Assembly (NCBI GenBank): GCA_937911265.1
Contig: CALDRG010000064.1
Coordinates: forward strand, 8,350-72,349
Direction: 5' to 3'
DNA from: an uncultured euryarchaeote
GTDB taxonomy: Archaea; Thermoplasmatota; Poseidoniia; Poseidoniales; Thalassarchaeaceae
Length of the DNA: 64,000 bases
This document shows positions 16,856-32,992 of the stretch, in pieces (position 1 is the first letter of the stretch; each line of letters begins with the position of its first letter). The notes under the pieces were generated by a model. That model saw nothing but the letters and a program-made list of their open reading frames with translations. It had not been told where the DNA came from and did no database searches. Position numbers and translations under genes: made by a program.

Positions 16856-19270
16856 ATGACCGAGGCCGAAATTCACCTGCTGGACACCGAGACATGGGAG
16901 CAGCAGGAACTGCTCGAGGTAATCTGCTCGAGGTACTTCGTCCTCGGTAGTCAGGGCTTAGCAGAGTACTCCTGGGAAGTTAACGGCAGGGAGGGTCGAA
17001 GTCCTAGCGCATCCTTGCGCTCGCTGAACAGGCACCTCAAGGACCTCAGCCTGATTGCAGTGTTAGATGAGGGGGACCCACCTCTGCTCAGCGTTGGTGG
17101 ACTGCCGTCGCAGGTGATGGTGATGCCGGCTTGGCAACAGGCTCTGGTATGGATCCTAGTCACAGGGTTCGTGACCATGGCAGGGGCCCTCTGGGTTACC
17201 CATCTAAATCCGGCTCCAGCGGTTTTGGAATTAGCAGTCCTGCAGACTTCTCTTGTGTTCTTCGCCCTCCCTGTGATGGGATCAGTTCTGCTCGCAAGTT
17301 ACGCCCGCATATTCGTCTCGGACGCGTTTGAAGTCGAGTCGAACCACTTGATTCCACTCGCCTTCCCGGTGATGTCCCCCGAATGGCCGTTCAGCCTGAT
17401 ATCTGCTATCGGCCAGATGAGGTCTGATCTGCACCCCATCCCTAATCGGCGAGCTCTCGGATTTATCGAACTGACCACGCCGACGGTGATGTTCGTCTGT
17501 GGATCGATACTGACCATCCTCGGCCTCGGCATGACCTCCAATCAACCTCCGGCCTTCGAGGCAGCCCCGATAGTGGTCGACACCAATTTTCTAGTGGACA
17601 TCTTTGGATCTGTGATGCTGTCTTCTGACGTGGCCTTGAAACTCCAGTGGATACATCCAACCGGGCTGGCCGGCATCGCACTCTCGCTTGCGGGATGGGC
17701 TCTCCTGCTCCCCATTCCTGGATTCCCGGGTGACCGGATACTGCACGCCCTAATCGGCCCAGGAGACATGCAGGAAGGCAGCAACCAGACGTCCATTTTC
17801 ATCGCTACTCTCGGTTTCGCACTTTTCATCTTCATCAGCACGGAATACTGGCCCTGGCTCCTACTGGCCGCCATCGCTGCATGGCGCAGGTTCAGTCCCG
17901 AGCAGATGCCATCTCCTTTCGTCGTCGACGAGTATGCGGGACTCGACGAGATTCAGATGCGACAGATTGCCTCGTTGGCGCTGGTCATCCTCCTGCTTGG
18001 CTACCCAGGCCTCGAGCCCAGTTACGAGATGGAGGATTGGGACAAAGGTCTGTCAACCGAATCTTGGCCCACACATATTTTCTTTGAGGATGGGGATGCC
18101 GAGGTCGAGTTGGCGCTCGAGCCAGTCGGGGTGATGCCAGTTTCCGGCTGGCTGCAGATGCGCATCGAAGGAGCCCCGTTCGGAGGCTGGCAGATTGATT
18201 CAGAGTGCATGGACGAAAGGGAAGTATGTCGTTTCGACGATATTACTCAGGCCTCGCCAGGTAGCGTGTCAGTCAGCATGAATCGTGATCAAATGGAGGC
18301 CAGTGCGCAGACATTCAGACTGGTCATCCTTCTCGATGTTGCCGATCACGTCTCTGAGTACGCCATAGTGTTCCATCCGACAGGGGTGACTTCACCGATA
18401 GACCCACTCTGGGTGATGGTCGAAGACACACAGACTCCTAGGATCTGCGTTGAGATTATGGTCGTCGAGGACGACTACGTCAACCTGACGAACAACGACC
18501 CGTTCTGGGCATTCGAGAACGAGACCTCTCTAGGTCCAGGAATTCATGAGTTATGCATGCGAGGTCACGAGGGTGCCTTACAATCCCTGTCGTTGCGGGA
18601 CAGCCAGTACCGCAGGATAGGCCCCTCCATCTCCCTGTCCCGCGAAAACCTATCCAATGACGTCCTGTTCCTGCCAATCGAGGGTACCCAGCCCATAATC
18701 CAGGTTTCCGACGGCGAGTGGCGCATTCCCGAGTGGTTTGAGTCGGACTCCGAGTACGTGATAGCCCGGGGCGAGGCCGGCTCGGCCTTCTGCCCCTCCA
18801 CTGACGTAATCGCCGAAGTCAATGCCAGCGGCGACTGGGACAGGGACCTCGCTGACCGCTCGTCGATACTCCTTCCGGCTGGTGAGATTGATAACGCGAC
18901 CCTCCGATTCGGCGCATCGGGCTGGCTGGCGCTGTGCCAAGGAACGACCATGTTCGCCTCGTACAGGGTGGTCGAGGGGCCGGATGTCATGGTTGACCCC
19001 GGAACCCTCTCGTCAAGGATGCCGAACGGCGAGTTTAGCATCGTTAACCGGGAAAACACCTCGATGTCCATATCTCTCGATTGGACAGGAGACGCAGTCG
19101 CTTGGGATAACTGGGAGGCTTGGGCACCGTCTGAAGTGGCAGCGATGTCATCGGTCACAGCCAACGCATCCGTCCACGGGTCCCCCTCTGCCTGGTGGGC
19201 AGCGTGGGTGACGGCAGATGAAGATGGCATCACTCTGCACTTTGCGGCGCGTTCGTGGGAGGCTGCATAA
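16856..19270 (+). CDS. Polytopic membrane protein with a large C-terminal extracytoplasmic domain; weak site-2-protease-like motif, no HExxH
   Basis: About 8 predicted TM helices in the N-terminal 400 aa; LLLPIPGFPGDRILHAL resembles the S2P NxxPxxxLDG motif but no zincin HExxH is present in the membrane domain; about 400-aa C-terminal soluble domain. Confidence 0.4.
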   Translation: MTEAEIHLLDTETWEQQELLEVICSRYFVLGSQGLAEYSWEVNGREGRSPSASLRSLNRHLKDLSLIAVLDEGDPPLLSVGGLPSQVMVMPAWQQALVWILVTGFVTMAGALWVTHLNPAPAVLELAVLQTSLVFFALPVMGSVLLASYARIFVSDAFEVESNHLIPLAFPVMSPEWPFSLISAIGQMRSDLHPIPNRRALGFIELTTPTVMFVCGSILTILGLGMTSNQPPAFEAAPIVVDTNFLVDIFGSVMLSSDVALKLQWIHPTGLAGIALSLAGWALLLPIPGFPGDRILHALIGPGDMQEGSNQTSIFIATLGFALFIFISTEYWPWLLLAAIAAWRRFSPEQMPSPFVVDEYAGLDEIQMRQIASLALVILLLGYPGLEPSYEMEDWDKGLSTESWPTHIFFEDGDAEVELALEPVGVMPVSGWLQMRIEGAPFGGWQIDSECMDEREVCRFDDITQASPGSVSVSMNRDQMEASAQTFRLVILLDVADHVSEYAIVFHPTGVTSPIDPLWVMVEDTQTPRICVEIMVVEDDYVNLTNNDPFWAFENETSLGPGIHELCMRGHEGALQSLSLRDSQYRRIGPSISLSRENLSNDVLFLPIEGTQPIIQVSDGEWRIPEWFESDSEYVIARGEAGSAFCPSTDVIAEVNASGDWDRDLADRSSILLPAGEIDNATLRFGASGWLALCQGTTMFASYRVVEGPDVMVDPGTLSSRMPNGEFSIVNRENTSMSISLDWTGDAVAWDNWEAWAPSEVAAMSSVTANASVHGSPSAWWAAWVTADEDGITLHFAARSWEAA

Positions 19271-20352: not shown

Positions 20353-23300
20353 ATGCATCTACTTCGAATGGAACTTGAGAACTTCAAATCATTCGGTGGA
20401 GAAATCACGATTCCGCTTGAAGAGGGATTTACAGCGATAACCGGGCCGAACGGCTCGGGCAAGTCGAACACCTTGGATGCTCTTGAGTTTGTTCTCGGTC
20501 CAAAGTCCACGAAGTCATTGAGGGCAGCCAACGTAACCCAGTTGATATTCAATGGTGGTAAACGAGGCAGGCCCGCCAAACACATGTCGGCCAGCCTAGT
20601 ATTCAGCAACACTCCCGAGCCCGGCAGCCGCAGGAGACTGAGGATCGATACCGACGAGGTCCGATTCACTAGGGCCGTCAGGCTAGGTAGGAAGGGAGCT
20701 CCAATCTCTTCCTACCGAATCAACGACGAACCTTCCTCGGCAACCGAAATGCGTCGGGTCCTAGCCGAGGCGGGCCTGCGGGCTGGTGGCTACAACATCG
20801 TGAAGCAGGGCGATGTCACTAGCCTCGCCACGATGACCCCTCACAAGAGAAGAGGGATTCTCGAGGACGTCGCTGGCGTCACCGCCTACGACGATGAGAT
20901 CCGCCGAGCCAACACCCAGCGCAAACATGTCGAGAACAATATCGAGACCATCGACCTGTTTGAGATCGAACAGAAGAAGCGCCTCAAGGACCTCGGTAAG
21001 GAACGCGAGCAGGCGCTCAAGTTCAAAGATATCAAGGAGGAGTTGGACACGGCTAGGACCTCGCTGCATCAGTCGAGGCACAGGAACCGCTCGGACGAGG
21101 TACATCTGTTAGGAGAGGAACGCTCTCGCTACCGAGATGATATCGATACCATCGGTGGCAGAGTCACCGAGGGCAACAGAGGACTACTCGCGCTCGACGA
21201 GGAGCTGGTGAAGGTAGATTCCGACATCAACGAGATTGCTGGTGGTGAAGCCCGAGACCTGTTCGAGCAGATTCGCCAGTACCAGATCGACATTGAGACC
21301 GGAGGCGATAGGATTGGCGATCAGCGCAGCATTATCGAGGATGCCGAAGAGGAGGCCGAGGAGTTCCGTGCAGAGCTACAGGGAGCCCAGTCGGCCCACG
21401 AACAGGCCGAAGACGCACTTACGAACGCCAGCCAAGACCTCGAAGAGGCCAAGGAGTCACTCAAGAGCGCCTCCGAGGACGAGCGGGATGCAAGGGATGC
21501 GATTGAGTCCGGAGATAAGGCAGGTCGAGGACTCAAGCGAATCCTCGGTCAAGCCACCGAAGCCGTGGACGAGGCCCATACGATTCATGCTGAGGCTAGA
21601 CTGAACGCCGATTTGGCTGAACAGACCTCCCAGATAGCCTCGAGCAAACTGGCTGACCTCGAAGAGGAGTTTGAGGAAGCCACGATGGTTCGCGACGACC
21701 TCGAACTGGTCGGCGAAGACCTGCAGAGCGACCAACCTACAACTGACCGCAGTTCTCTGGCTGAAGAGCTCCGCCGAATGCAGAGGCAGGAAGCCGAGCT
21801 GGCAGGAGACAGGGACCGCTCGGAGATTAGAGTCAGGGATGCCGAGAGAGATTTGAACAAGGCCAGAGCGCGCCAGGAGGGTCGCGCCAACAACCATGGC
21901 TCAGCAGTGACGCTGGCAGCACTCGTCAAACTCCGCCAGAGCGGCGATGTGAAAGGGATACTCGGCTCTCTTGGAGAGCTCACTGCACCGAAGGACCCGT
22001 CACACGAGGAAGCGCTGGCCAACGCCTTCGGAGCCGGACTTAGGAGCATCGTCGTCACAGATGACGATGTCGCAGCCAAGTGTATTTCTTGGCTAAGGCA
22101 GAATGGAGGCGGCAGAGCCACATTCCTACCTCTCAACAAACTCAGCACCAGTCGCCCAGGGGGGCGCTCCCTGATTGTCGCAAACAATCCCGGAGTTGTC
22201 GGTTTTACTCACGATCTGTTGGAGTACGACTCGGAGATTGAAACTGCTGTCAGGTACGCCGGGCGTAACACACTCCTAGTCGACACAATGGAAGTAGCTC
22301 GACGTAACATGGGCGGCGTTAGGCTGGTCACTCTCGATGGCTCGATAATCGAGAGTTCTGGAGCGATGACCGGGGGCTCAGCCCTCAAGTCTAATCGAAA
22401 CGCATTCGGAGGTGGCTCGATCTCGTCGAGCCTAGACAGACTGGAAGCAGCGGTCGAGGAGGCCAATCTCATCTATTCCACTGTCGAGGCCGCTCTCAGG
22501 GAGTTGCGAGGAAATCAGCAGAACCTGCGCGACAGGATACACGGCCTTGATGATGGCGACCACTCGCTACAGTTGCGCAATTGGAAGGCGGACATCGAGC
22601 GGGCCCAGAGGGATGTCGACGATATCCGCAAGAAGGTGGTAGCATCTAATGGTGAGTTCAAGCGTTACGAGGTGGCCCAAGCCACTGCTAGTTCTGCGGC
22701 CGATGAGGCTAGGGAAAATTACGAGTCTGCAGTCGCCGATAGGGCCGCAGCCGCTCAGGCCTTGCAGGACCACGCCCCCGATCACCTATCGCAGAAGCTC
22801 CGAGAGGCAGAGCGAACAATGACCGAGGCCGAGCGTACTCGGCTAGCCTCTGAATCAGCAATTTCCAATGGTAACGAGCGCTTGCAAATCCTATCCGGGC
22901 GCGTCGCGGACATCCAGCGTCAAATTGACAAGAAGCTCAAGGCCATGTCTGAGGCAGAGTCAAAGATCTCCGAGTTGGGGAAGGCTATTGTTGAGGCCAA
23001 GAACAACCTTGAGGACCTCAGGGAGCAGGCTTCCCAGTTCGATGAGGAGCAGCAGGCGCTCAAGGAAAGGAGGGACGAGATTGTCGACGAGCGAGCAAGT
23101 CTGCGAGCATCAGTTGAGACCCTGTCTCAGAAGAAGGAGATCCTAACGTCTCGTATTGATGACCTGAATATCCAAATCCAGCAGAAGCGCGAAGCGGTTG
23201 ACGAGATAGTCGCCGAACTTGAGGGCGCCGGGATAGCAATCCCGTTGCCAGAAGCGCATCTGCCGACTGTGGCCGAGGCGGAGAAGAGCGTGCAGGGGCT

Positions 23301-24273
23301 CGAGCGCCGCCTCGGTCATCTCGGCGATGTGAACATGCTCGCCATAGAGCAGTACGACAGCACTGCCGAACGCATCGCCGGGCTGGTGGAGGACGGCAAG
23401 TTGCTACGCAGCCGGCGCAAACATCTCGTCTCGATAGCCGTGCAACTTGAGGACGAACGCAAGACTAGGCTGATGGCTGTATTCAATCACGTCAACAGCA
23501 ACTTCTCGAGAGTCTACAAGATACTGCAGCCGGCAGGTAGCGGAAAACTCCAGATGGAGAATCCGAAGAATCCCTTCGATGGCGGTTTGGAGATGCAGTG
23601 TGTTCCTCCGGGCAAGAGCAAGAATACCCGTCGTAGCCAGTTGTCCGGCGGCGAGAAGTCGATGGCCGCACTAGCTCTGATATTCGCCATCCAAGACTAC
23701 GAGCCCAGTCCGTTCTACTACCTTGACGAAGTCGACCAGAACCTCGACCCATTCAACGCCGAGCGCATCGCGACCCTGTGCAGGATGCGCAGTCAGCGAG
23801 CACAGTTCCTCATGGTGACGCTGCGCAAGGTCAGCCTCACTCTCGCTGATCATCACATCGGCGTCACCCACGCCGGTGATGGGCGCAGTCGCCTAATCAC
23901 CGACTTCGACAGGGCAGCTGCCCTCGAGATGGGAGAGGAATTTGAGGCCGAGAACAACGCCCAGGCGTTGGCCAAGGCCGAGCGCGAGGCGATGCCCGAA
24001 CTGCCAGACCCGGAAGACATGCCTCGAGCTCCCGAGTCACTTGGCACCCCGAAGAGCCTGGGCGGCGTTGCCGAACGAGCTGGTGTGGATATCGAAGCCA
24101 CTGGGGCTGAGGAAAAGATCGAGGCAGAAGGTGGCACAATCGAATCTCTGCGTGATCGTACTGAGGACTGGACCGAGGATATAGAGGAGCGCGAAGAGAT
24201 TGAGCAGAATCTTGTAGAATCGGAGAACGAAGATGAGACTGATACAGAGGCTGAGCAGAAGGAGGCGGAATGA
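20353..24273 (+). CDS. smc: Chromosome segregation protein SMC
   Basis: 1306 aa; N-terminal Walker A GPNGSGKSN, long coiled coils, hinge, C-terminal signature LSGGEKS and Walker B YYLDEVD. Confidence 0.95.
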   Translation: MHLLRMELENFKSFGGEITIPLEEGFTAITGPNGSGKSNTLDALEFVLGPKSTKSLRAANVTQLIFNGGKRGRPAKHMSASLVFSNTPEPGSRRRLRIDTDEVRFTRAVRLGRKGAPISSYRINDEPSSATEMRRVLAEAGLRAGGYNIVKQGDVTSLATMTPHKRRGILEDVAGVTAYDDEIRRANTQRKHVENNIETIDLFEIEQKKRLKDLGKEREQALKFKDIKEELDTARTSLHQSRHRNRSDEVHLLGEERSRYRDDIDTIGGRVTEGNRGLLALDEELVKVDSDINEIAGGEARDLFEQIRQYQIDIETGGDRIGDQRSIIEDAEEEAEEFRAELQGAQSAHEQAEDALTNASQDLEEAKESLKSASEDERDARDAIESGDKAGRGLKRILGQATEAVDEAHTIHAEARLNADLAEQTSQIASSKLADLEEEFEEATMVRDDLELVGEDLQSDQPTTDRSSLAEELRRMQRQEAELAGDRDRSEIRVRDAERDLNKARARQEGRANNHGSAVTLAALVKLRQSGDVKGILGSLGELTAPKDPSHEEALANAFGAGLRSIVVTDDDVAAKCISWLRQNGGGRATFLPLNKLSTSRPGGRSLIVANNPGVVGFTHDLLEYDSEIETAVRYAGRNTLLVDTMEVARRNMGGVRLVTLDGSIIESSGAMTGGSALKSNRNAFGGGSISSSLDRLEAAVEEANLIYSTVEAALRELRGNQQNLRDRIHGLDDGDHSLQLRNWKADIERAQRDVDDIRKKVVASNGEFKRYEVAQATASSAADEARENYESAVADRAAAAQALQDHAPDHLSQKLREAERTMTEAERTRLASESAISNGNERLQILSGRVADIQRQIDKKLKAMSEAESKISELGKAIVEAKNNLEDLREQASQFDEEQQALKERRDEIVDERASLRASVETLSQKKEILTSRIDDLNIQIQQKREAVDEIVAELEGAGIAIPLPEAHLPTVAEAEKSVQGLERRLGHLGDVNMLAIEQYDSTAERIAGLVEDGKLLRSRRKHLVSIAVQLEDERKTRLMAVFNHVNSNFSRVYKILQPAGSGKLQMENPKNPFDGGLEMQCVPPGKSKNTRRSQLSGGEKSMAALALIFAIQDYEPSPFYYLDEVDQNLDPFNAERIATLCRMRSQRAQFLMVTLRKVSLTLADHHIGVTHAGDGRSRLITDFDRAAALEMGEEFEAENNAQALAKAEREAMPELPDPEDMPRAPESLGTPKSLGGVAERAGVDIEATGAEEKIEAEGGTIESLRDRTEDWTEDIEEREEIEQNLVESENEDETDTEAEQKEAE

Positions 24274-25280
24274 TGACGGTGTTCGATGGCCAGACCATGC
24301 GCGACGACATCGTAGCGAGGATGCTGGGCAGCGATGCCGACCTCGAGACCAGTAGATATCTAGACAGACTGGTCGAACTCGCAACCCTCGAGGAGGCCGA
24401 GCATCAGTTCCTGATTGATCCATTTGACCGCTCGGTGGCGCTCGTTCTGCAACTGTTCCAGTCTAGCGACCTCGATCCGTGGGATGTCGACCTCAGCTCT
24501 TTCCTTGAGATGTTCAACGAGAGGATCAAAGAGTCCGAGAACATCGACCTGCCGACCTGTGGTAGGCTTGTCAGGATGGCTTGGTGCATCCTGCGAGGAC
24601 AGGCCTCTACTCTGTTGGAGAGGCAGGAGCATGCCTTCGACTTCGAAGAAGAAGAAGTCTGGGACTTCGACGGAGGCTGGGAGTCAGAGTTCGATGACGC
24701 CGACTACAATTTCTCTCTTGGAGTCCTGACCGGTGCGGCCGACGAGGCCCTGCCTCAGATGTTCGAAGGCAGGATACACCGCGACGAGAGCCGGCCAGTT
24801 ACTCTCGGCGAACTCCTGATGGGGCTGCAGGATGCAGGCAGACTCGCAGCCGAACAGCGTCTGCGTGAGGAGATAGCCAAGGAGCGCCGCGAGGCTAACA
24901 CCCGTGCTAGGGAGAGATTCAGTGGTAGCCTCCATATCGAGGACCTTGAGGGCGATCTACAGCGGACCTGGGAGTCTCTGAAGATACGATCTAGGGGGGC
25001 TGGAAAACCCATCGGACTGGGGGATTTAGTTGATGACATTTCCTCAAAGTCGGTTGAATCTGGAATACCGAAGGAGGAAGCTGAGATCGAGGCACAGGTG
25101 ACAGCACTGGTCTCGGCGCTGTTCCTGACGAACAGAGGTTATGTCGATTTGAAACAGGAGAATGGACGTAATGGCAAAATCACTCTCAAAGACCTGTGGA
25201 CAGAGGATGAGGATTTCTCAACTCTCTCTCAGAAACTCCACCCCAAGCCTATGATAGCGGAGGTCATCGCAGATGTCTGA
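24270..25280 (+). CDS. scpA: Segregation and condensation protein A (kleisin)
   Basis: Start overlaps smc stop; ScpA-like N-terminus (DLDPWDVDLSSF) and downstream position. Confidence 0.75.
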   Translation: MMTVFDGQTMRDDIVARMLGSDADLETSRYLDRLVELATLEEAEHQFLIDPFDRSVALVLQLFQSSDLDPWDVDLSSFLEMFNERIKESENIDLPTCGRLVRMAWCILRGQASTLLERQEHAFDFEEEEVWDFDGGWESEFDDADYNFSLGVLTGAADEALPQMFEGRIHRDESRPVTLGELLMGLQDAGRLAAEQRLREEIAKERREANTRARERFSGSLHIEDLEGDLQRTWESLKIRSRGAGKPIGLGDLVDDISSKSVESGIPKEEAEIEAQVTALVSALFLTNRGYVDLKQENGRNGKITLKDLWTEDEDFSTLSQKLHPKPMIAEVIADV

Positions 25281-25896
25281 GACGCCCCTTTCCACTATAC
25301 TCGAGGCGATACTGTTCGGCGCTGGCCGCTCGATGTCGGTCGAGGAGCTGTCCGAACTGCTCGAGAAACCGCGGGGCGAGGTTCAGTCAGCCTTGCGCGA
25401 GCTACAGGCCACTATTCGTCGGCGCCGCGACTCGGCGCTTCAACTCACTGACATCGCCGGTCGATGGATTTTCGAGGTTAGACCAACCCTGTCTCCTCAT
25501 CTGCCTGAGTCGTTCCGCGCCGACATCCCACAGAGGCTACTACCAGCAGCCGCATTGGTGGCCTATCATCAGCCGATGGCCCAGTCGCAGTTGGTGGATA
25601 TGCTGGGACAGAGGGCGTACGACCACGTTCGTGACCTCGCTAAAATGGGACTAATCGACCGCAGGAGGGACGGTCTGACTAGGCGCCTCACTACTACCCG
25701 CCGGTTCGCTGAATACTTTGGATGCCCCGAAGTGGAGTACCGCAAGGTCAGGACGTGGTTTAGGGAAGAGGCATCCAAGATGGGCCTGACGAGTGCTCAG
25801 TTAGCCGCTTCACTGGCTCCCGAGGAGCAACTGACGATCAACGAGTTCTCCGATGATGTCACAGTTACGGAAGAGCCTCTAGAGGCTGAGGAGTGA
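25273..25896 (+). CDS. scpB: Segregation and condensation protein B
   Basis: ILEAILFGAGRSMSVEELSELL ScpB winged-helix N-terminus; translationally coupled to scpA. Confidence 0.8.
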   Translation: MSETPLSTILEAILFGAGRSMSVEELSELLEKPRGEVQSALRELQATIRRRRDSALQLTDIAGRWIFEVRPTLSPHLPESFRADIPQRLLPAAALVAYHQPMAQSQLVDMLGQRAYDHVRDLAKMGLIDRRRDGLTRRLTTTRRFAEYFGCPEVEYRKVRTWFREEASKMGLTSAQLAASLAPEEQLTINEFSDDVTVTEEPLEAEE

Positions 25897-25897
25897 A

Positions 25898-27253
25898 TCA
25901 CTCCGCCCTCAGATTCTCCAGTTCCTCTTCGACAGCCTTCTGGGTGATTCTGTCGCCTTGCTCTCGTAGTCGGACTGCGACGATATCAATCTCTGATCCC
26001 TCTGCACCAGCAGTCACTGCCATGTTCCGGACATGGAGCTTCATGTGTCCGGCTTGGATACCTACTGTCGCCAACGCCCTCAGGGCACCGAGGTTCTGGG
26101 CCAACCCCGCTGCCGCCATCACCTTGGCGAGCTCGTCGGCGGAAGTGATTCCGAGCAGAGCCACGTTGGCTTGCGCTGCAGGGTGCACTCTCACTGCACC
26201 TCCCACTAGCCCCACAGCCATCGGTAGTTCAATCGAGCCCACTAGATTGCCTTCGCCATCCTTCTCCCAGTGAGTCAGCGAGCCATAGGTCCTCTCGTGT
26301 GCGGCGAAACTGTGAGCACCGGACTCCACAGCCCGCCAGTCCTGTCCACAGGCGAGGGCTATGGGAGATATCGCATTCATGATGCCCTTGTTGTGAGTAG
26401 TGGCGCGAAACGGGTCGGCTTTGGCGAAGTGATATGCTTGCAGTATTCCCTCTATGACTTCGGAGCCCTGCTCCGCATTGCCCTTGTCCGACAATTCCTC
26501 AGGGCTGAATACAGCACTCACCCTAGCCAGTCTGTGCACGGCAAGATTGCTGATTATGCGCAGTATAACTGTCCCACCTGTCATACTCTCTATCTTTGGG
26601 GCGATGGTCTCGGCCATGGTGTTGACAGCGTTTGCACCCATGGCGTCTCTACAGTCCACCAGGATGTGGACAATGACCATCGGTCCGGAGTCAGTTTCTA
26701 TTATTCTGACTTGAATATCCCGACATCCGCCACCGAATTTGACTAGAATCGGGTCGACAGCATTGCAAGATTCGACTAATTCGGCGCTTTTTCCTAGGAT
26801 TGAAGCCTTTGCAACTTCTGGATCATCGCAACCCACAACTTGGATTTGCCCAATCATCACTGGATCATCGTTGTCAGAGGTGAATCCACCATTGGCATGG
26901 CACCTCTTTGCCATATTGCTGGCGGCAGCCACCACACTTGGTTCCTCAAGGACGAATGGTATCAGATAGTGCTCACCATCGATGATGAAGTTGGTAGCGA
27001 CTCCGATGGGCAGCGAGTATGTCCCGATTACATTCTCAATCATCCTATCTGCTGAATCTTCGGAAAGCTCACCTGAAGAGGACCATGCCTCTACTTGCTC
27101 TGGTGTGAGTTTGGCTGTGTGAGCCAGCACCTCCCTGCGTTCTGAAACAGAGAGCTTGTAGAATCCTTCGAGTCGGCTGCTGTCGACGGGCATCTGTATC
27201 AGTTGAAGCCCGGAGTAATTGGCTTCTAACTGTTTGCGATTGACCTTGTTCAT
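25898..27253 (-). CDS. mvaA: Hydroxymethylglutaryl-CoA reductase, class II (NADPH/NADH)
   Basis: ENVIGTYSLPIGVATNFIIDGEHYLIPFVLEEPSVVAAAS and DAMGANAVNT, characteristic of class II HMGR. Confidence 0.9.
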   Translation of the reverse strand: MNKVNRKQLEANYSGLQLIQMPVDSSRLEGFYKLSVSERREVLAHTAKLTPEQVEAWSSSGELSEDSADRMIENVIGTYSLPIGVATNFIIDGEHYLIPFVLEEPSVVAAASNMAKRCHANGGFTSDNDDPVMIGQIQVVGCDDPEVAKASILGKSAELVESCNAVDPILVKFGGGCRDIQVRIIETDSGPMVIVHILVDCRDAMGANAVNTMAETIAPKIESMTGGTVILRIISNLAVHRLARVSAVFSPEELSDKGNAEQGSEVIEGILQAYHFAKADPFRATTHNKGIMNAISPIALACGQDWRAVESGAHSFAAHERTYGSLTHWEKDGEGNLVGSIELPMAVGLVGGAVRVHPAAQANVALLGITSADELAKVMAAAGLAQNLGALRALATVGIQAGHMKLHVRNMAVTAGAEGSEIDIVAVRLREQGDRITQKAVEEELENLRAE

Positions 27254-27294
27254 GTTCGCGATTTAGCAGTATAGTTCAGAAAACACTTCCTAAA

Positions 27295-27467
27295 AATGCG
27301 TTAATCTACCCATTAACGGGTTGTTAACGCATCAATAAAGCGTTAGTGAAGCGTTAACATCGAATTGTCACATTCGTAGCACTGGGTGAAAAGGGCCCAA
27401 CTAAATCCTCTCGGAAAAACGCGAGAATGCGTTAAATCACCATATGAGAAGCGTGAGGATGCGTGAA
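27295..27467. repeat. Array of at least 6 (A/T)(A/T)GCGTTAA motifs in both orientations in the divergent mvaA / orc1-like intergenic region
   Basis: ATGCGTTAA at 27295 and 27426; inverted copy TTAACGCAT at 27323; AAGCGTTAG at 27338; AAGCGTTAA at 27348; degenerate AAGCGTGAGG and ATGCGTGAAT at 27448-27467; 37-bp dyad ATGCGTTAA...TTAACGCAT at 27295-27331. Confidence 0.8.
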
Positions 27468-27475
27468 TATTAAGA

Positions 27476-29287
27476 ATGAGAGAGCTCGCTGCTCGAGCAA
27501 TGATGGGAGAGGCAGTTTCTCTACTTGACCTACCTCCCCTCAGGGGAAATCCCTTCGAACTCAGACCAATCGAGTCGACGCGAGCCCAGGACATAGTCGG
27601 GCGCGATTCACTGATGACCCGCTTGAGAGAGCATATCATATCCGAATCTCCGAGGATGGTGCTCTTAGTTGGGGGACGAGGCAGCGGTAGAACCTCTCTG
27701 GTAAACGCCCTGTCTTCTCAGGTCAGTAAGAAGTTCGTCGGCCAGTTCTGGCCTCGGGACGAGGCCGTCAGCTCCGTGATGAATGAGATCGCTGTCCATT
27801 TCATCGGTCACGAAGTTCCTCCGTCCACTGGGCAGATGTGTGAGCGCCTGATTGAAACGCTCGAGCAGAGTACAGGACCACTCTCCCTAATTGCCCTTGA
27901 TTACCCCTCAAATACCCCTATGAATGACTTCCTAGCGCGCATGACGCCACTGTTGCAGAGGCTCAAGGCACTGGTTCTGGTGACGCTGACACCGGCACAA
28001 CTGACCTCCTTGGACGAAGAGGTGCTCGATGTGTTCGATTCCCCCGAGCATCTTGATGGCCTATCGGAGAGTCAGATTCAGAAGTTGGCCGACAATCTCG
28101 TGCGCAGGAAGGCCCGTGAGCGCTGGATCATCAACCCCGATATCTTGACTGCCATCCACGATAGCACAGCAGGAAATCCACGCGAGGTGGTGCGCTTGTG
28201 CCGGGCGCTCATTGATGAAAGGCGAGGTGTCGGCTCCGAGGGTACACTCGAGAGGCTGGTCGGATGGCAGAGGATCGTGCAGGAAGAGGACGAAGATCCT
28301 CCAGAGGCACACTCCTCCCTCACCGAGTTAGAATCAGAACCCGTTCCCGAGTCAGTCGAAGATGGTGAGGACTGGGACGTCGAGCCCGATGACCTGTGGG
28401 AGGATGAATCCGAACCCGAAGGCCAATCCGAAGAGTTCGATTGGGACAAGGAACTCCCTGAACCAGACGATATCTGGGACGATGGGCCCGTGCCCGTGCC
28501 CGTGCCCGAGCCCGAGCCCGAGTCGCAGTCGCCCCCTCCAGAGGAGAACCAGGAGACGCTGGATTCCTTCCTCTTCGCCGAAGAGGGCACTGAACATCTG
28601 GTACAGCCTCGTCACGCCGGCGGACTCAGTGGCTTAGCCGACAGATCACAGAGAATCAGCGCAGCCATGCCCGAGGGTCTGGACGAGACTCCGATTACGG
28701 TCGCCGAGAATCGGCCGCAATTGACACCGGCTCCTATCAGGCCACCTCCTAGGCCGAATCCCGAACCTGCATTCGTTACCGACGCCAAGCCAGACACCTC
28801 GGTGCTACCCACTCAGGACCAACCGGTGATGGCTGCCGAGGGTGCCCTTTGGACTGTGGACTCTAGTCTCGGCTCATCCCTGCCTGTCTTAGATGCGGAG
28901 CCAAAGGCCAGTCCCGAACCAGTCTTCGACATCGATCACTCCCCTCCTCCTGCCGTAGTGCCGGAGCCAGTGTTTGAGGAGCCGGAACCTGCTCCTCCCC
29001 AAATCCCGATTCCCCTCGGACCAGCTTGGGATGTTGACGAGCCTCTCAACCATGCCCGAGTCGCGACAGTTTCTGATGCTGAGCGTACCGTGCTGGCAGC
29101 AGCCAAGGCACGCGAGATCTCACCTTCGGACCCGGAACTACAGGCCTTTCTCGAGGTCGGTAGACCTCGACTATCGCAGATTTTCAATGGACTGCGGAAA
29201 GCTGGCCTGCTCTCGGTCAGGAAGCAGGGCAGGACGAGACTGTTCAAACTAAGCAGAGCAGCCTCGTTGGAACTCGAGATGACATAG
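27476..29287 (+). CDS. Orc1/Cdc6-like AAA+ paralogue with degenerate Walker A, long acidic Pro-rich linker and C-terminal winged-helix-like domain
   Basis: NPFELRP...IVGRD...LLVGGRGSGRTSL (Arg in place of the Walker A Lys), Walker B-like LIALDY, sensor-2-like GNPREVVRLCRAL; about 230-aa low-complexity D/E/P linker; C-terminal LSQIFNGLRKAGLLSVRKQGRTRLFKL. Confidence 0.55.
   Translation: MRELAARAMMGEAVSLLDLPPLRGNPFELRPIESTRAQDIVGRDSLMTRLREHIISESPRMVLLVGGRGSGRTSLVNALSSQVSKKFVGQFWPRDEAVSSVMNEIAVHFIGHEVPPSTGQMCERLIETLEQSTGPLSLIALDYPSNTPMNDFLARMTPLLQRLKALVLVTLTPAQLTSLDEEVLDVFDSPEHLDGLSESQIQKLADNLVRRKARERWIINPDILTAIHDSTAGNPREVVRLCRALIDERRGVGSEGTLERLVGWQRIVQEEDEDPPEAHSSLTELESEPVPESVEDGEDWDVEPDDLWEDESEPEGQSEEFDWDKELPEPDDIWDDGPVPVPVPEPEPESQSPPPEENQETLDSFLFAEEGTEHLVQPRHAGGLSGLADRSQRISAAMPEGLDETPITVAENRPQLTPAPIRPPPRPNPEPAFVTDAKPDTSVLPTQDQPVMAAEGALWTVDSSLGSSLPVLDAEPKASPEPVFDIDHSPPPAVVPEPVFEEPEPAPPQIPIPLGPAWDVDEPLNHARVATVSDAERTVLAAAKAREISPSDPELQAFLEVGRPRLSQIFNGLRKAGLLSVRKQGRTRLFKLSRAASLELEMT
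28486..28521 (+). repeat. Tandem hexanucleotide repeat (GCCCGT x3, GCCCGA x3) encoding PVPVPVPEPEPE inside the Orc1-like gene
   Basis: Read directly from the sequence. Confidence 0.9.
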
Positions 29288-29295
29288 GTGCTCAA

Positions 29296-29586
29296 ATGTC
29301 CGGCTCAGTAGTAACCAGAGATAAGGTTGAGAGGTATCTGGCCCTGACGACTGAGGCTAGGTCGAAGGCGACCCCCTGCGCGGAAGGTGTGGAGGACGAG
29401 GCCCGATTGACCTCGATGCTGAGGATGTGCGATGACTACGCCGCTGATGCCAGGCATTTCATGGAGTCCGATGATTTGGTTCGCGCCTTCGGGGCCATCA
29501 ACTACTCGCACGCTTGGTTGGATGCCGCCGTTAGAATCGGTCTACTGGACGGCCATGGAGATGACCGGTTGTTCACGCTGCCCTAG
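29296..29586 (+). CDS. Small conserved hypothetical protein
   Basis: 96-aa helical ORF with good coding character directly after the Orc1-like gene; no family assignable. Confidence 0.4.
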   Translation: MSGSVVTRDKVERYLALTTEARSKATPCAEGVEDEARLTSMLRMCDDYAADARHFMESDDLVRAFGAINYSHAWLDAAVRIGLLDGHGDDRLFTLP

Positions 29587-31789: not shown

Positions 31790-32992
31790 TCAACTGATTT
31801 CCTTCTCAATTCGACTCTCCAGAGCCGCAGGTGCGGTATTGGTCATGGTGATGTGCTGCGTCCTCCCCCTACCCACCGTCGCGTTCGCAGTCCGCGACTC
31901 AATCAGCCCCAATGTCTCGAGCTCCTTGAGGTGCTTCCAGAAGGTGGTGTAACTGCGGGGTTTGTCCCCGTTCTCCTCGCAGACTAGATTGTACAACTTC
32001 TGGGCATCACCGCTGGAGATCTCGTCCACCCTCTTGAGGCGCCTGCAGATACCGAGGAGGACCAGTTTCTGATGCTTGCCCAGATTGTCGACCTGACTTG
32101 GTTCGACCGAAGCACCCCGTAAGGTGCTGGGTCGTACATCCTCGATTAAGACGTCTCCTCTGCCATCCATCTCGGCGCGTCGAATTGCTGCTTCCAGCAG
32201 TTCGATGGCGAGACGCGCGTCACCTGTCTCAGCGGCGAACCTACCGATCTTGGACAGAGTGTCATCGCCCACCGATCCCGGTTTGCAGGCCTCCTCGTAG
32301 CGCTGCCTAGCGATACCCGTGAGCGCGCGCTCGTCGTATCCGCCCAGCGCCATCATGCTGCTCTCGCCGAGCCGAGAGATAATGGCTGGTTCGAACAACC
32401 TGATTAGGGAAACATCTTGACTCACCAGTATCATCGAGAGCGAGCCCTGCTGGTCCTGACCCTCATCGATTCGGAGCAGTTTGTAGATTAGGTCGCCCTT
32501 GTCGTTGCGAATTAGCACATCTACTTCGTCGAGGGTTAGCAGGAGATGGGTCTTGTGTACCTTGAGGTTACGACGAATAGATTGGATGATCTCGCTCGAG
32601 CTGAAGCCCCGTTCTGGGTGTCCAGAGTCGAGTGAGCGAGCAATCTCCTGCAACACCTGTGAGGCAGTTGGGTGGTTGCGGCAGTTGACATGAGCGAGAA
32701 CTATCTTCCTGCGTCCGTCCAGCATTCGCTGAAGATCTTCTCCGAAGCGACGTGTCATCACCGTCTTGCCCGAACCTACTGGTCCTGTAATGACTGCCCT
32801 GCCACTGACTCCGTCCCCTTCCATTCCACTGAACATCGAAGCGAGCTCACCGAGTTCCTCATCGCGACCGACCAATGCAGGCGGCGTCCAATCGAACGAG
32901 AAAAACATCCCGTTCAGCAGGACCTTGCCCGCTCCTATTCTGTCTAGGTAGTCGACCATTATGTGACTCGTGCTCACATCGTTATTAGACAT
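31790..32992 (-). CDS. cdc6: Orc1/Cdc6 replication initiator
   Basis: LVGRDEEL, Walker A GPVGSGKT, Walker B LTLDEVD, sensor-2 GDARLAIELL, C-terminal winged helix. Confidence 0.9.
   Translation of the reverse strand: MSNNDVSTSHIMVDYLDRIGAGKVLLNGMFFSFDWTPPALVGRDEELGELASMFSGMEGDGVSGRAVITGPVGSGKTVMTRRFGEDLQRMLDGRRKIVLAHVNCRNHPTASQVLQEIARSLDSGHPERGFSSSEIIQSIRRNLKVHKTHLLLTLDEVDVLIRNDKGDLIYKLLRIDEGQDQQGSLSMILVSQDVSLIRLFEPAIISRLGESSMMALGGYDERALTGIARQRYEEACKPGSVGDDTLSKIGRFAAETGDARLAIELLEAAIRRAEMDGRGDVLIEDVRPSTLRGASVEPSQVDNLGKHQKLVLLGICRRLKRVDEISSGDAQKLYNLVCEENGDKPRSYTTFWKHLKELETLGLIESRTANATVGRGRTQHITMTNTAPAALESRIEKEIS

What the first reader, a model, noticed from the sequence alone, without database searches (positions are those of the whole stretch)
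27295..27467. Dense bidirectional array of (A/T)(A/T)GCGTTAA motifs with a 37-bp dyad in a 222-bp divergent intergenic region
Six to eight copies of a 9-mer in both orientations occur within 175 bp: ATGCGTTAA at 27295 and 27426, inverted TTAACGCAT at 27323, AAGCGTTAG at 27338, AAGCGTTAA at 27348 and degenerate GCGTGA copies at 27448-27467. I saw the motif nowhere else in the 64 kb. It lies between class II HMG-CoA reductase, the first committed step of isoprenoid lipid synthesis, and the Orc1-like gene. This density is typical of cooperative transcription-factor operators or initiator-binding elements. The motif is not the classical archaeal ORB or mini-ORB (TCCA...GAAAC), so the binder would be novel.
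Basis: seen in the sequence. Interest (0 to 1): 0.6.

Follow-up and report, generated by a model that had tools for sequence, protein, structure and literature searches.

The report
Conserved operator array in marine archaea
A tightly spaced cluster of eight copies of an 11-base DNA word sits in front of an uncharacterised Orc/Cdc6-like DNA-binding ATPase gene in every Marine Group II archaeon (Poseidoniales) examined, and it is most likely the docking site through which that protein controls its own gene.

Summary
Eight copies of (A/G)AnGCGT(T/G)AAT lie at 27295-27468. Seven of them score at least 13.8 bits with a matrix built only from other genomes. About 0.4 such hits are expected per 64 kb, and nothing else in the window exceeds 12 bits.

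The window comes from a Poseidoniales (Marine Group II) archaeon. The array is conserved in every orthologous intergenic region examined, about 45 in both families. Copies are phased at about 11 bp. In the MGIIb family, spacings are nearly identical (15-11-16-11-77/78-22-10).

The array keeps a fixed register with the right-hand gene: the last copy abuts its TATA-like box, about 30 nt before the conserved ATG at 27500. Its distance to HMG-CoA reductase floats between 55 and 163 nt.

The right-hand gene is not Orc1/Cdc6. It encodes a Poseidoniales-specific protein with three parts:
- an initiator-clade AAA+ fold with no Walker B glutamate;
- a long acidic linker;
- an ArsR/MarR-type winged helix.

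The canonical Orc1/Cdc6 gene lies 4.3 kb away (31790-32992).

Best reading (about 0.6): a multi-site operator bound cooperatively by the adjacent protein, giving autoregulation. Control of HMG-CoA reductase is unproven. A non-canonical replication origin or chromosome-organising site is not excluded (about 0.13). No publication describing it was found.

The parts
27295..27305 (+). Site S1, AATGCGTTAAT. It is the left arm of the conserved 22-bp dyad GCGTTAAT-N6-ATTAACGC.
   Evidence: Matrix score 18.3 bits. Invariant core in 22 MGIIb regions.
27312..27322 (-). Site S2, AACCCGTTAAT on the minus strand. It is the right arm of the dyad and is slightly degenerate in this genome.
   Evidence: 14.9 bits. 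Conserved column block.
27323..27333 (-). Site S3, GATGCGTTAAC on the minus strand, 11 bp from S2.
   Evidence: 15.0 bits. Spacing.
27337..27347 (+). Site S4, AAAGCGTTAGT.
   Evidence: 14.8 bits. Conserved.
27348..27358 (+). Site S5, GAAGCGTTAAC, 11 bp from S4.
   Evidence: 14.6 bits. Conserved.
27373..27384 (+). Conserved spacer box, TTCGTAGCACTG here and (GAAAA)CGATATACTGA in the consensus. It resembles the BRE/TATA-like box that sits about 25 nt before the ATG of the same gene in MGIIa genomes. It may be a distal or ancestral promoter and is degenerate in this genome.
   Evidence: Footprint alignment. MGIIa regions. The promoter reading is inference.
27426..27436 (+). Site S6, AATGCGTTAAA, 77-78 bp (about seven 11-bp turns) from S5.
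   Evidence: 15.7 bits. Spacing conserved across MGIIb.
27448..27458 (+). Site S7, GAAGCGTGAGG. A weak GCGTGA variant at a conserved position.
   Evidence: 7.0 bits. Conserved column block AagCGT.AG.
27458..27468 (+). Site S8, GATGCGTGAAT. It abuts the TATA-like box, in the BRE position.
   Evidence: 13.8 bits. Consensus tgCGTgAAtaTTAtGtAct is conserved.
27467..27478 (+). TATA-like box of the AAA+-wHTH gene, ATATTAAGAATG, about 25-30 nt before the conserved ATG. This implies a leaderless or near-leaderless mRNA.
   Evidence: Conserved in 22 regions. The promoter role is inference.
27500..29287 (+). Gene for the Poseidoniales-specific protein. It has a degenerate initiator-clade AAA+ domain, an acidic/proline-rich disordered linker and a C-terminal ArsR/MarR-type winged helix. 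It is the candidate binder of the array.
   Evidence: The start at 27500 comes from the alignment.
25898..27193 (-). Class II HMG-CoA reductase. The probable start is the ATG at 27193 (431 aa), not 27253.
   Evidence: The N-terminal extension is not conserved and is out of frame in the closest relatives. Homologues are called at 431-432 aa.
27221..27232 (-). Promoter-like box of HMGR, CAGTTAGAAGCC on the minus strand, about 30 nt before the ATG at 27193. Its distance to the array varies between genomes.
   Evidence: The promoter role is inference.
31790..32992 (-). Context: the canonical Orc1/Cdc6 gene (Orc1-1-like). Its flanking gaps are only 48 and 75 bp and no ORB lies nearby.

Best explanation
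The array is a multi-site transcriptional operator that belongs to the promoter of the gene on its right. I propose the following mechanism.

1. The gene's product is a Poseidoniales-specific protein. It has an Orc/Cdc6/MuB-like AAA+ domain that has lost the Walker B catalytic glutamate. In the MGIIb branch, including this window, the Walker A lysine is also replaced by arginine. A long disordered linker follows, then an ArsR/MarR-type winged helix. The protein recognises the 11-bp word (A/G)AnGCGTTAAT through the winged helix.
2. Dimers occupy the dyads: GCGTTAAT-N6-ATTAACGC in MGIIb and TTAACGCGTTAA in MGIIa.
3. AAA+-mediated oligomerisation lets further copies bind cooperatively to the sites phased at 11 bp, all on one face of the helix. 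The upstream cluster (S1-S5) and the promoter-proximal cluster (S6-S8) are separated by about seven turns.
4. Occupancy of the conserved weaker GCGTGA copies S7/S8, which sit on the BRE position next to the TATA-like box, then sets transcription of the protein's own gene. Negative autoregulation is the most likely outcome.

Shown: the array, its conservation, its phasing, its fixed register with the gene start, the folds of the two protein domains, and co-occurrence of array and gene.

Inferred: that this protein is the binder, the direction of regulation, and any effect on the divergent HMG-CoA reductase gene.
For: 1. Enrichment and uniqueness. There are 7 matrix hits of at least 13.8 bits in 174 bp, against 0.4 expected per 64 kb, and none elsewhere in the window. 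In 16 orthologous loci there are 87 hits inside the intergenic region against 3 in 119 kb outside it.
2. Conservation across both Poseidoniales families and all examined members of the protein family. Motif columns are invariant while spacers are free to vary.
3. Phasing. Same-orientation neighbour spacing is 11 bp in 32 cases and 10-12 bp in 44 of 74. Total architecture is near-identical in MGIIb.
4. Register. The distance from the array to codon 17 of the AAA+-wHTH gene is 55-57 nt in 12 of 17 loci, and the array span is 171-174 nt in 10 of 17. The distance to HMGR is 55-163 nt. S8 abuts the conserved TATA-like box.
5. Dyad symmetry, as expected for dimeric winged-helix regulators.
7. Co-occurrence. 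HMGR loci of other archaea and of bacteria have neither the gene nor the array.
8. Precedent. Sulfolobus Orc1-2, an Orc1/Cdc6 protein, acts as a promoter-binding transcription regulator (PMC6061795).
Against: No binding data exist, so the binder assignment rests on adjacency and co-occurrence. The gene and the array were never found apart, so the two cannot be separated phylogenetically.

The locus lies in a chromosome-maintenance neighbourhood. SMC-ScpAB is on one side, and Orc1-1 and gyrAB lie within 15 kb on the other. It is the largest repeat-bearing non-coding stretch near orc1, which also fits an origin-like role.

Eight or more sites spanning 174 bp is more than simple autoregulation needs.

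Transcription start sites are inferred, not measured.

A genome-wide scan could not be run. Only this 64 kb, the syntenic flanks and one metagenome pattern scan were examined.
Confidence: 0.6

Rival explanations
1. The array is a non-canonical chromosomal replication origin, or a centromere-like or condensin-loading nucleation site. It would be marked by repeats bound by the adjacent Orc/Cdc6-like AAA+-wHTH protein, or by Orc1-1, rather than being primarily a transcriptional operator.
For: - Canonical Orc1-1 lies 4.3 kb away in conserved synteny in both families. Its flanks are only tens of bp to about 115 bp long (25-113 bp) and carry no ORB-like repeat.
- This is the only repeat-bearing intergenic region within about 10 kb of orc1.
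- SMC-ScpA-ScpB and gyrA/gyrB are neighbours.
- Two site clusters flank a 67-bp spacer that is AT-rich in low-GC genomes.
Against: - There is no ORB or mini-ORB consensus, although the related Methanomassiliicoccales keep canonical ORBs beside orc1/cdc6.1.
- High-GC genomes have no conserved AT-rich unwinding element: the lowest 30-bp GC is 0.27-0.37 and the longest A/T run is 6-8 nt.
- The sites flanking the spacer (S4, S5 and S6-S8) point the same way, not inverted.
- The spacer holds a conserved promoter-like box, and the whole array is in fixed register with a start codon.
- The Walker B glutamate is missing.
- Skew gives no support. Total GC skew peaks here with genes converging, and GC3 skew follows the coding strand and genome GC, not position.
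- SMC adjacency is lost in some genomes.
Confidence: 0.13
2. The array is an operator, but it is bound by a different transcription factor encoded elsewhere. That factor would co-regulate the divergent pair, for example coupling isoprenoid-lipid synthesis (HMGR) to some signal. The adjacent protein would be a target, not the binder.
For: The cis-evidence is the same as for the main explanation. S1-S5 lie on the HMGR side. In several genomes S1 is only about 25-30 nt upstream of the HMGR promoter-like box. No experiment ties the adjacent protein to the motif.
Against: The array occurs only where the AAA+-wHTH gene occurs. The conserved winged-helix recognition region parallels the conserved motif core. 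No second array was seen in 64 kb, in about 290 kb of syntenic flanks, or among about 20 Poseidoniales hits of the dyad scan. This would be unusual for a trans-acting regulon factor. The distance to HMGR is not conserved.
Confidence: 0.17
3. The inverted copies form RNA hairpins in a 5' leader or a small RNA (riboregulator or attenuator). On this reading the repeats are structural RNA rather than protein-binding DNA.
For: S1/S2 and S3/S4-S5 can pair. RNAalifold returns two hairpins on either strand (and I1-I4).
Against: The covariance term is about 0, and only 1-2 of 15-19 pairs show double-sided changes. Both arms are conserved as sequence. Direct repeats phased at 11 bp and the GCGTGA copies are not explained. 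There is no Rfam match (best E 3.4, far below gathering scores). The motif occurs in different arrangements in MGIIa and MGIIb while keeping the same word.
Confidence: 0.03

Closest known systems
Sulfolobus/Saccharolobus Orc1-2, the DNA-damage-response regulator (PMC6061795)
   Same: An Orc1/Cdc6-type AAA+ domain plus winged helix is used as a transcription regulator rather than as an initiator. It binds a short conserved motif in promoters.
   Different: Orc1-2 is a bona fide Orc1/Cdc6 family member that controls a large regulon through a hexanucleotide motif. The protein here fails Orc1/Cdc6 family thresholds, has an ArsR/MarR-like winged helix and a roughly 250-residue disordered linker, and lacks the Walker B glutamate. 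Its putative sites form one phased array of 8 copies at its own promoter.
Archaeal oriC: ORB or mini-ORB repeats bound by Orc1/Cdc6
   Same: Multiple repeats in both orientations lie in an intergenic region next to an initiator-like AAA+/winged-helix gene. The site lies in the orc1 neighbourhood.
   Different: The sequence is unrelated to the ORB consensus (CTTCCAGTGGAAACGAAAGGGGT, as cited in PMC4153887). There is no G-string and no conserved DUE. The flanking sites are not inverted around the spacer. The adjacent protein is not Orc1/Cdc6.
ArsR/SmtB and MarR winged-helix repressors with autoregulated, often divergent, promoters
   Different: Those proteins are about 100-150 residues long, dimeric, and use one or two operators. 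Here the winged helix is the tail of a roughly 595-residue AAA+ protein, and the operator has 8 phased sites.
STAND/AAA+ ATPase-HTH regulators such as MalT, and archaeal 'ATPase_2 + wHTH' proteins (PAB2304, SSO1545)
   Different: There is no sensor or TPR arm. The ATPase motifs are degenerate. The archaeal relatives are uncharacterised, so no functional transfer is possible.

Membership tests
Archaeal replication origin (oriC with ORBs) | ORB or mini-ORB consensus repeats (TTCCAsTGGAAAC core, G-string) | tested here: not met
   There are 24 matches at up to 3 mismatches against 25 expected, and none in the region. Only 1 exact core match was found in 223 loci, and it is unrelated.
Archaeal replication origin (oriC with ORBs) | AT-rich duplex-unwinding element flanked by inverted initiator sites | tested here: not met
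   No conserved AT-rich stretch exists in high-GC genomes. The sites on both sides of the spacer have the same orientation. The spacer carries a promoter-like conserved box.
Archaeal replication origin (oriC with ORBs) | Adjacency to an orc1/cdc6 initiator gene | tested here: inconclusive
   The adjacent gene is Orc-like only in fold. The canonical Orc1-1 gene is 4.3 kb away in conserved synteny.
Archaeal replication origin (oriC with ORBs) | Strand-composition switch of origin polarity | tested here: inconclusive
   Total skew has a maximum here with converging genes. GC3 skew tracks the coding strand and genome GC, not position.
Archaeal replication origin (oriC with ORBs) | Replication initiation in vivo (marker frequency, 2D gels) | not testable with these tools
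   This needs read-coverage profiles or experiments.
Orc1/Cdc6 protein family (for the adjacent 27500-29287 gene) | Family-level sequence match (TIGR02928; Pfam Cdc6_lid and Cdc6_C) | tested here: not met
   TIGR02928 scores 12.4 bits against a 181.3 cut-off. The only Pfam hit is AAA_16 at 29.2 bits, below its 32.6 cut-off. The window's true Orc1 (31790-32992) matches Cdc6_C, Cdc6_lid and AAA_22.
Orc1/Cdc6 protein family (for the adjacent 27500-29287 gene) | Initiator-clade AAA+ fold | tested here: met
Orc1/Cdc6 protein family (for the adjacent 27500-29287 gene) | Intact Walker A (GKT/S) and Walker B (DE) motifs | tested here: not met
   GSGRTS and LDYP are invariant in 13 MGIIb sequences. Some MGIIa members keep the lysine, but none has the Walker B glutamate.
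Orc1/Cdc6 protein family (for the adjacent 27500-29287 gene) | Cdc6-type C-terminal winged helix | tested here: not met
Transcription-factor operator array at an autoregulated promoter | Over-represented sites conserved in orthologous promoter regions while spacers diverge | tested here: met
Transcription-factor operator array at an autoregulated promoter | Fixed position relative to core promoter elements of the regulated gene | tested here: met
   The array lies 55-57 nt from codon 17 in 12 of 17 loci. S8 abuts the conserved TATA-like box. The TATA and TSS assignments are inferred.
Transcription-factor operator array at an autoregulated promoter | Dyad symmetry and helical phasing compatible with dimeric or oligomeric binding | tested here: met
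   A 22-bp dyad in MGIIb, a 12-bp palindrome in MGIIa, and an 11-bp modal spacing.
Transcription-factor operator array at an autoregulated promoter | Sequence-specific binding by the encoded regulator and an effect on transcription | not testable with these tools
   This needs EMSA or footprinting, plus in vitro transcription or reporter assays.
ArsR/SmtB-MarR winged-helix regulators (C-terminal domain only) | wHTH fold (helix-turn-helix plus beta wing) | tested here: met
ArsR/SmtB-MarR winged-helix regulators (C-terminal domain only) | Curated family score thresholds | tested here: not met
   NF033788 scores 22.5 bits against a 55 cut-off. No Pfam HTH family is reported at E up to 0.001.
Structured RNA (Rfam family or new RNA) | Covariation-supported secondary structure or an Rfam match | tested here: not met
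   The best Rfam E-value is 3.4, far below gathering scores. The alifold covariance term is about 0.

The most novel reading that the evidence does not exclude
The array would be the nucleation site of a Poseidoniales-specific chromosomal nucleoprotein complex. That complex would be either a replication origin specified by a non-canonical, ATPase-dead Orc/Cdc6-like protein instead of ORB/Orc1, or a centromere-like or condensin-loading site next to smc-scpAB and orc1. Its promoter overlap would be secondary. This would be a new kind of archaeal origin or partition determinant in one of the most abundant archaeal groups in the surface ocean.
Probability: 0.13. Interest if true: 0.85.

Novelty: new variant of a known kind. 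Interest (0 to 1): 0.6.

Why it matters
Poseidoniales (Marine Group II) are among the most abundant planktonic archaea. They are uncultured, and I found no transcription factor, operator or origin described for them.

This locus offers three things:
- a sharply defined 11-bp recognition word;
- a complete, order-wide conserved site architecture;
- a single obvious candidate binder whose DNA-binding domain (about 90 residues) can be made recombinantly.

The hypothesis is therefore directly testable without culturing.

The candidate protein is also an unusual evolutionary derivative of the initiator AAA+ clade. Its ATPase is inactivated, its linker is long and disordered with conserved short motifs, and it carries a TF-type winged helix. 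It sits in conserved synteny with orc1, smc-scpAB and the key mevalonate-pathway enzyme. Its function may therefore connect gene regulation with chromosome biology or lipid synthesis.

Tried and rejected
- Chance or low-complexity cluster: rejected.
- Canonical ORB or mini-ORB: absent from the window and from 223 loci. No other repeat family lies near orc1.
- GC-skew evidence for an origin. Total skew peaks at about 26 kb. GC3 skew at first looked origin-like in the window. Four other loci showed that GC3 skew simply follows the coding strand and genome GC, so I dropped it as evidence either way.
- AT-rich unwinding element: not conserved.
- Rfam or structured RNA: nothing.
- Regulon search. 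No second cluster was found in the 64-kb window, in the flanks of 16 + ~15 loci, or among the Poseidoniales hits of the metagenome dyad scan. The remaining metagenome and viral hits were isolated chance matches, or the terminal repeats of what looks like a eukaryotic transposon in one host-associated sample.
- Separating the array from either gene phylogenetically failed. Every family member sampled (P0083, P0091, P0097, P0045, P0064, P0010) keeps the same locus. P0129 turned out to be an unrelated bacterial ExeA-like ATPase.
- Literature searches for the motif, for Poseidoniales origins or regulators, and for HMGR regulation in this group returned nothing relevant.
- The longest-ORF starts (27253 for HMGR, 27476 for the AAA+ gene) were rejected in favour of the conserved starts 27193 and 27500.

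Full report
**Observation.** The region contains eight copies of one word:
- S1 27295-27305 (+)
- S2 27312-27322 (-)
- S3 27323-27333 (-)
- S4 27337-27347 (+)
- S5 27348-27358 (+)
- S6 27426-27436 (+)
- S7 27448-27458 (+, weak)
- S8 27458-27468 (+)

The 37-bp dyad (S1/S3) is real. WGCGTTAA occurs five times in 64 kb against 0.88 expected, four of them here. I built a position weight matrix only from other genomes. Its consensus is (A/G)A-n-G-C-G-T-(T/G)-A-A-T. It gives seven hits of at least 13.8 bits, all in 27295-27468, and nothing above 12 bits elsewhere. Simulated 64-kb sequences give 0.4 such hits, so P is about 4e-25 for seven in 174 bp.

**Where the window comes from, and the flanking genes.** HMG-CoA reductase relatives place the window in Poseidoniales (Marine Group II), closest to Thalassarchaeaceae/MGIIb.

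The left gene is class II HMGR (PF00368; TIGR00532, E 3.9e-129). Its conserved start is the ATG at 27193, not 27253. The 20-codon extension is absent or out of frame in the closest relatives, and a promoter-like box (AAAnGTTAGAAGCC) sits about 30 nt upstream of 27193.

The right gene starts at the conserved ATG at 27500. The real intergenic region is therefore 27194-27499, 306 bp.

**The right-hand protein.**
- The only Pfam hit is a sub-threshold AAA_16 match, and the Orc1/Cdc6 model TIGR02928 scores 12 bits against a cut-off of 181.
- The Walker A motif is GSGRTS and the Walker B motif is LDYP, both invariant in MGIIb. No family member has the catalytic glutamate, although some MGIIa members keep the Walker A lysine.
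- A linker of about 250 residues follows. It is acidic and proline-rich and carries conserved short motifs.
- The family has about 93 representatives at E below 1e-10. Every member whose context I fetched lies in the same Poseidoniales locus.
- More distant hits are 350-400-residue 'AAA_22/ATPase_2 + wHTH' proteins.

'Orc1-like' is therefore true of the fold and the architecture, but the protein is not an Orc1/Cdc6 family member. The genuine Orc1/Cdc6 gene (Cdc6_C, Cdc6_lid) is at 31790-32992 on the minus strand. By its ranking against solved structures it is of the Orc1-1 type.

**Conservation of the array.**
- In 16 species-representative Poseidoniales genomes, HMGR and the AAA+-wHTH gene are divergent neighbours. 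The region between them carries the motif cluster.
- There are 87 matrix hits inside these regions against 3 in 119 kb of flanks.
- HMGR loci of Marine Group III, other archaea and bacteria have neither the gene nor the array.
- A metagenome scan with the dyad GCGTTAATN6ATTAACGC returned about 20 further Poseidoniales loci, all at this same gene pair.
- Same-orientation neighbours are most often 11 bp apart (32 of 74; 44 of 74 at 10-12 bp).
- In MGIIb the core-to-core spacings are practically invariant: + 15 - 11 - 16 + 11 + 77/78 + 22 + 10 +.
- MGIIa genomes use the same word in a different layout. Three reverse and three forward copies surround a palindromic TTAACGCGTTAA, followed by a promoter-proximal pair.
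- A 22-sequence alignment shows invariant motif columns and free spacers. It also shows a conserved box in the long spacer, (GAAAA)CGATATACTGA, which resembles the BRE/TATA-like box lying about 25 nt before the ATG in MGIIa. Finally it shows a conserved TATA-like box (aTTAtGtACT, or ATTAAGAAT here) directly after S8, about 25-30 nt before the start codon.

**Which gene the array belongs to.** The distance from the array to codon 17 of the AAA+-wHTH gene is 55-57 nt in 12 of 17 loci, and the array span is 171-174 nt in 10 of 17. The distance to the conserved HMGR codon 21 ranges from 55 to 163 nt. The array is therefore built into the promoter of the AAA+-wHTH gene. S8 occupies the BRE position and S7 lies one helical turn upstream. 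Both are conserved as the GCGTGA variant rather than GCGTTA.

HMGR has its own promoter-like box at a variable distance from S1. Co-regulation of HMGR is possible but unsupported.

**Mechanism proposed.** The winged helix recognises the 11-bp word. Dimers sit on the dyads. The AAA+ domain probably acts as a nucleotide-binding switch without hydrolysis and mediates cooperative oligomerisation along sites that share one face of the helix. The upstream cluster and the promoter-proximal cluster lie about seven turns apart. Filling of the weaker S7/S8 copies over the BRE/TATA sets the gene's own transcription, most likely as negative autoregulation.

The cis-architecture and the protein folds are shown. 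The binder identity, the sign of regulation and the start sites are inferred. Precedent for an Orc1/Cdc6-type protein acting as a promoter-binding regulator exists in Sulfolobus Orc1-2 (PMC6061795).

**Rival: origin or chromosome-organising site.** This deserves to be kept open.
- In favour: the locus lies between smc-scpA-scpB and a block containing orc1-1 and gyrAB. The synteny with orc1 holds in both families. Orc1 itself has only tens of bp up to about 115 bp of flanking non-coding DNA (25-113 bp). No ORB-like or other repeat occurs within about 14 kb of it. The related Methanomassiliicoccales do keep canonical ORBs beside orc1/cdc6.1 (PMC4153887).
- Against: there is no ORB consensus. High-GC genomes have no conserved AT-rich unwinding element. 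The sites flanking the spacer point the same way. The spacer contains a promoter-like box. The array is in fixed register with a start codon. The adjacent protein lacks the Walker B catalytic glutamate, and in this window also the Walker A lysine.
- Skew is uninformative. The total-skew maximum coincides with converging genes, and GC3 skew follows the coding strand and genome GC in five loci.

I give this rival about 0.13.

**Other rivals.** A different trans-acting factor could be the binder (about 0.17). This cannot be excluded without binding data, but it fits poorly with the strict co-occurrence of array and gene and with the lack of any second cluster. An RNA structure is unlikely: there is no Rfam match and no covariation, and the direct repeats are left unexplained.

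**Novelty and verdict.** Full-text searches found no description of the motif, of this protein family, or of any Poseidoniales operator or origin. In kind, this is an operator array plus an adjacent autoregulated winged-helix regulator, which is a known type. The recognition word, the phased eight-site architecture and the degenerate initiator-clade AAA+ partner are new.

The finding is real, conserved and experimentally tractable. The interpretation as 'cooperative operators for a novel binder' is the best supported. The 'Orc1-like' label and the implied HMGR link need correction.

Noticed in passing
window 31790-32992 (-): A canonical Orc1/Cdc6 gene (Cdc6_C, Cdc6_lid, AAA_22) of the Orc1-1 type. 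Its flanking gaps are only 48 and 75 bp, and no ORB-like repeat lies within about 14 kb. The same holds in four other Poseidoniales loci. Where the origin of these genomes lies is open.
   Followed up: partly
window 25898-27253 and 27476-29287: The longest-ORF starts are probably wrong. The conserved starts are the ATG at 27193 for HMGR (431 aa, as called in relatives) and the ATG at 27500 for the AAA+-wHTH gene. Both appear leaderless or nearly so, behind TATA-like boxes.
   Followed up: yes
window 27500-29287 (protein residues ~260-510): The long acidic/proline-rich linker carries short motifs that are conserved across the family. These include an N-terminal LPPLRGNPF, (E/Q)PGTEPP, G-x-F-x-GL-x-x-R-x-R and ALW-x-V(D/E). 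They suggest partner-binding sites in a hub-like protein.
   Followed up: no
L005, L006, L007, L226 (spacer between array and AAA+-wHTH start): A different conserved spacer box, TTCAACGCTTCCAAAC, is present in one Poseidoniales subgroup in place of the CGATATACTGA box. Its role is unknown.
   Followed up: no
L081, L083, L085, L226, L227 (downstream of the AAA+-wHTH gene): MGIIa genomes and some others carry an extra gene of about 340-357 aa with no Pfam match between the AAA+-wHTH gene and DUF357. It is absent from this window, where DUF357 (29296-29586) follows directly after an 8-bp gap.
   Followed up: no
L224, L225 versus window 20353-25896: A synteny breakpoint lies immediately downstream of HMGR. 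smc-scpA-scpB flank HMGR in the window and in L081, L082, L226 and L227. Citrate synthase takes their place in L224 and L225. The HMGR/AAA+-wHTH/orc1 block stays intact.
   Followed up: partly
L088-L205, many contigs of metagenome sample Ga0209679 (e.g. L101, L115, L140, L150): An unrelated repeated element at about 40% GC carries dense TTAACGCGTTAA / GCGTTAATTAACGC repeats next to a conserved 'gagctgtcgaat' end. It looks like the terminal repeats of a eukaryotic DNA transposon in a host-associated sample.
   Followed up: partly
window, whole 64 kb: Weak matrix matches (at least 8 bits) are rarer outside the locus than in mononucleotide shuffles: 16 outside against about 40 expected in total. 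This may reflect CG/TTAA dinucleotide depletion or avoidance of the word. Coding-strand GC3 skew is negative in high-GC and positive in low-GC Poseidoniales genomes.
   Followed up: partly
window 16856-19270 (+) and 24270-25280 (+): An 804-aa ORF has no Pfam match. The 336-aa ORF between smc and scpB, presumably ScpA by position, also has no Pfam match at E up to 0.001.
   Followed up: no
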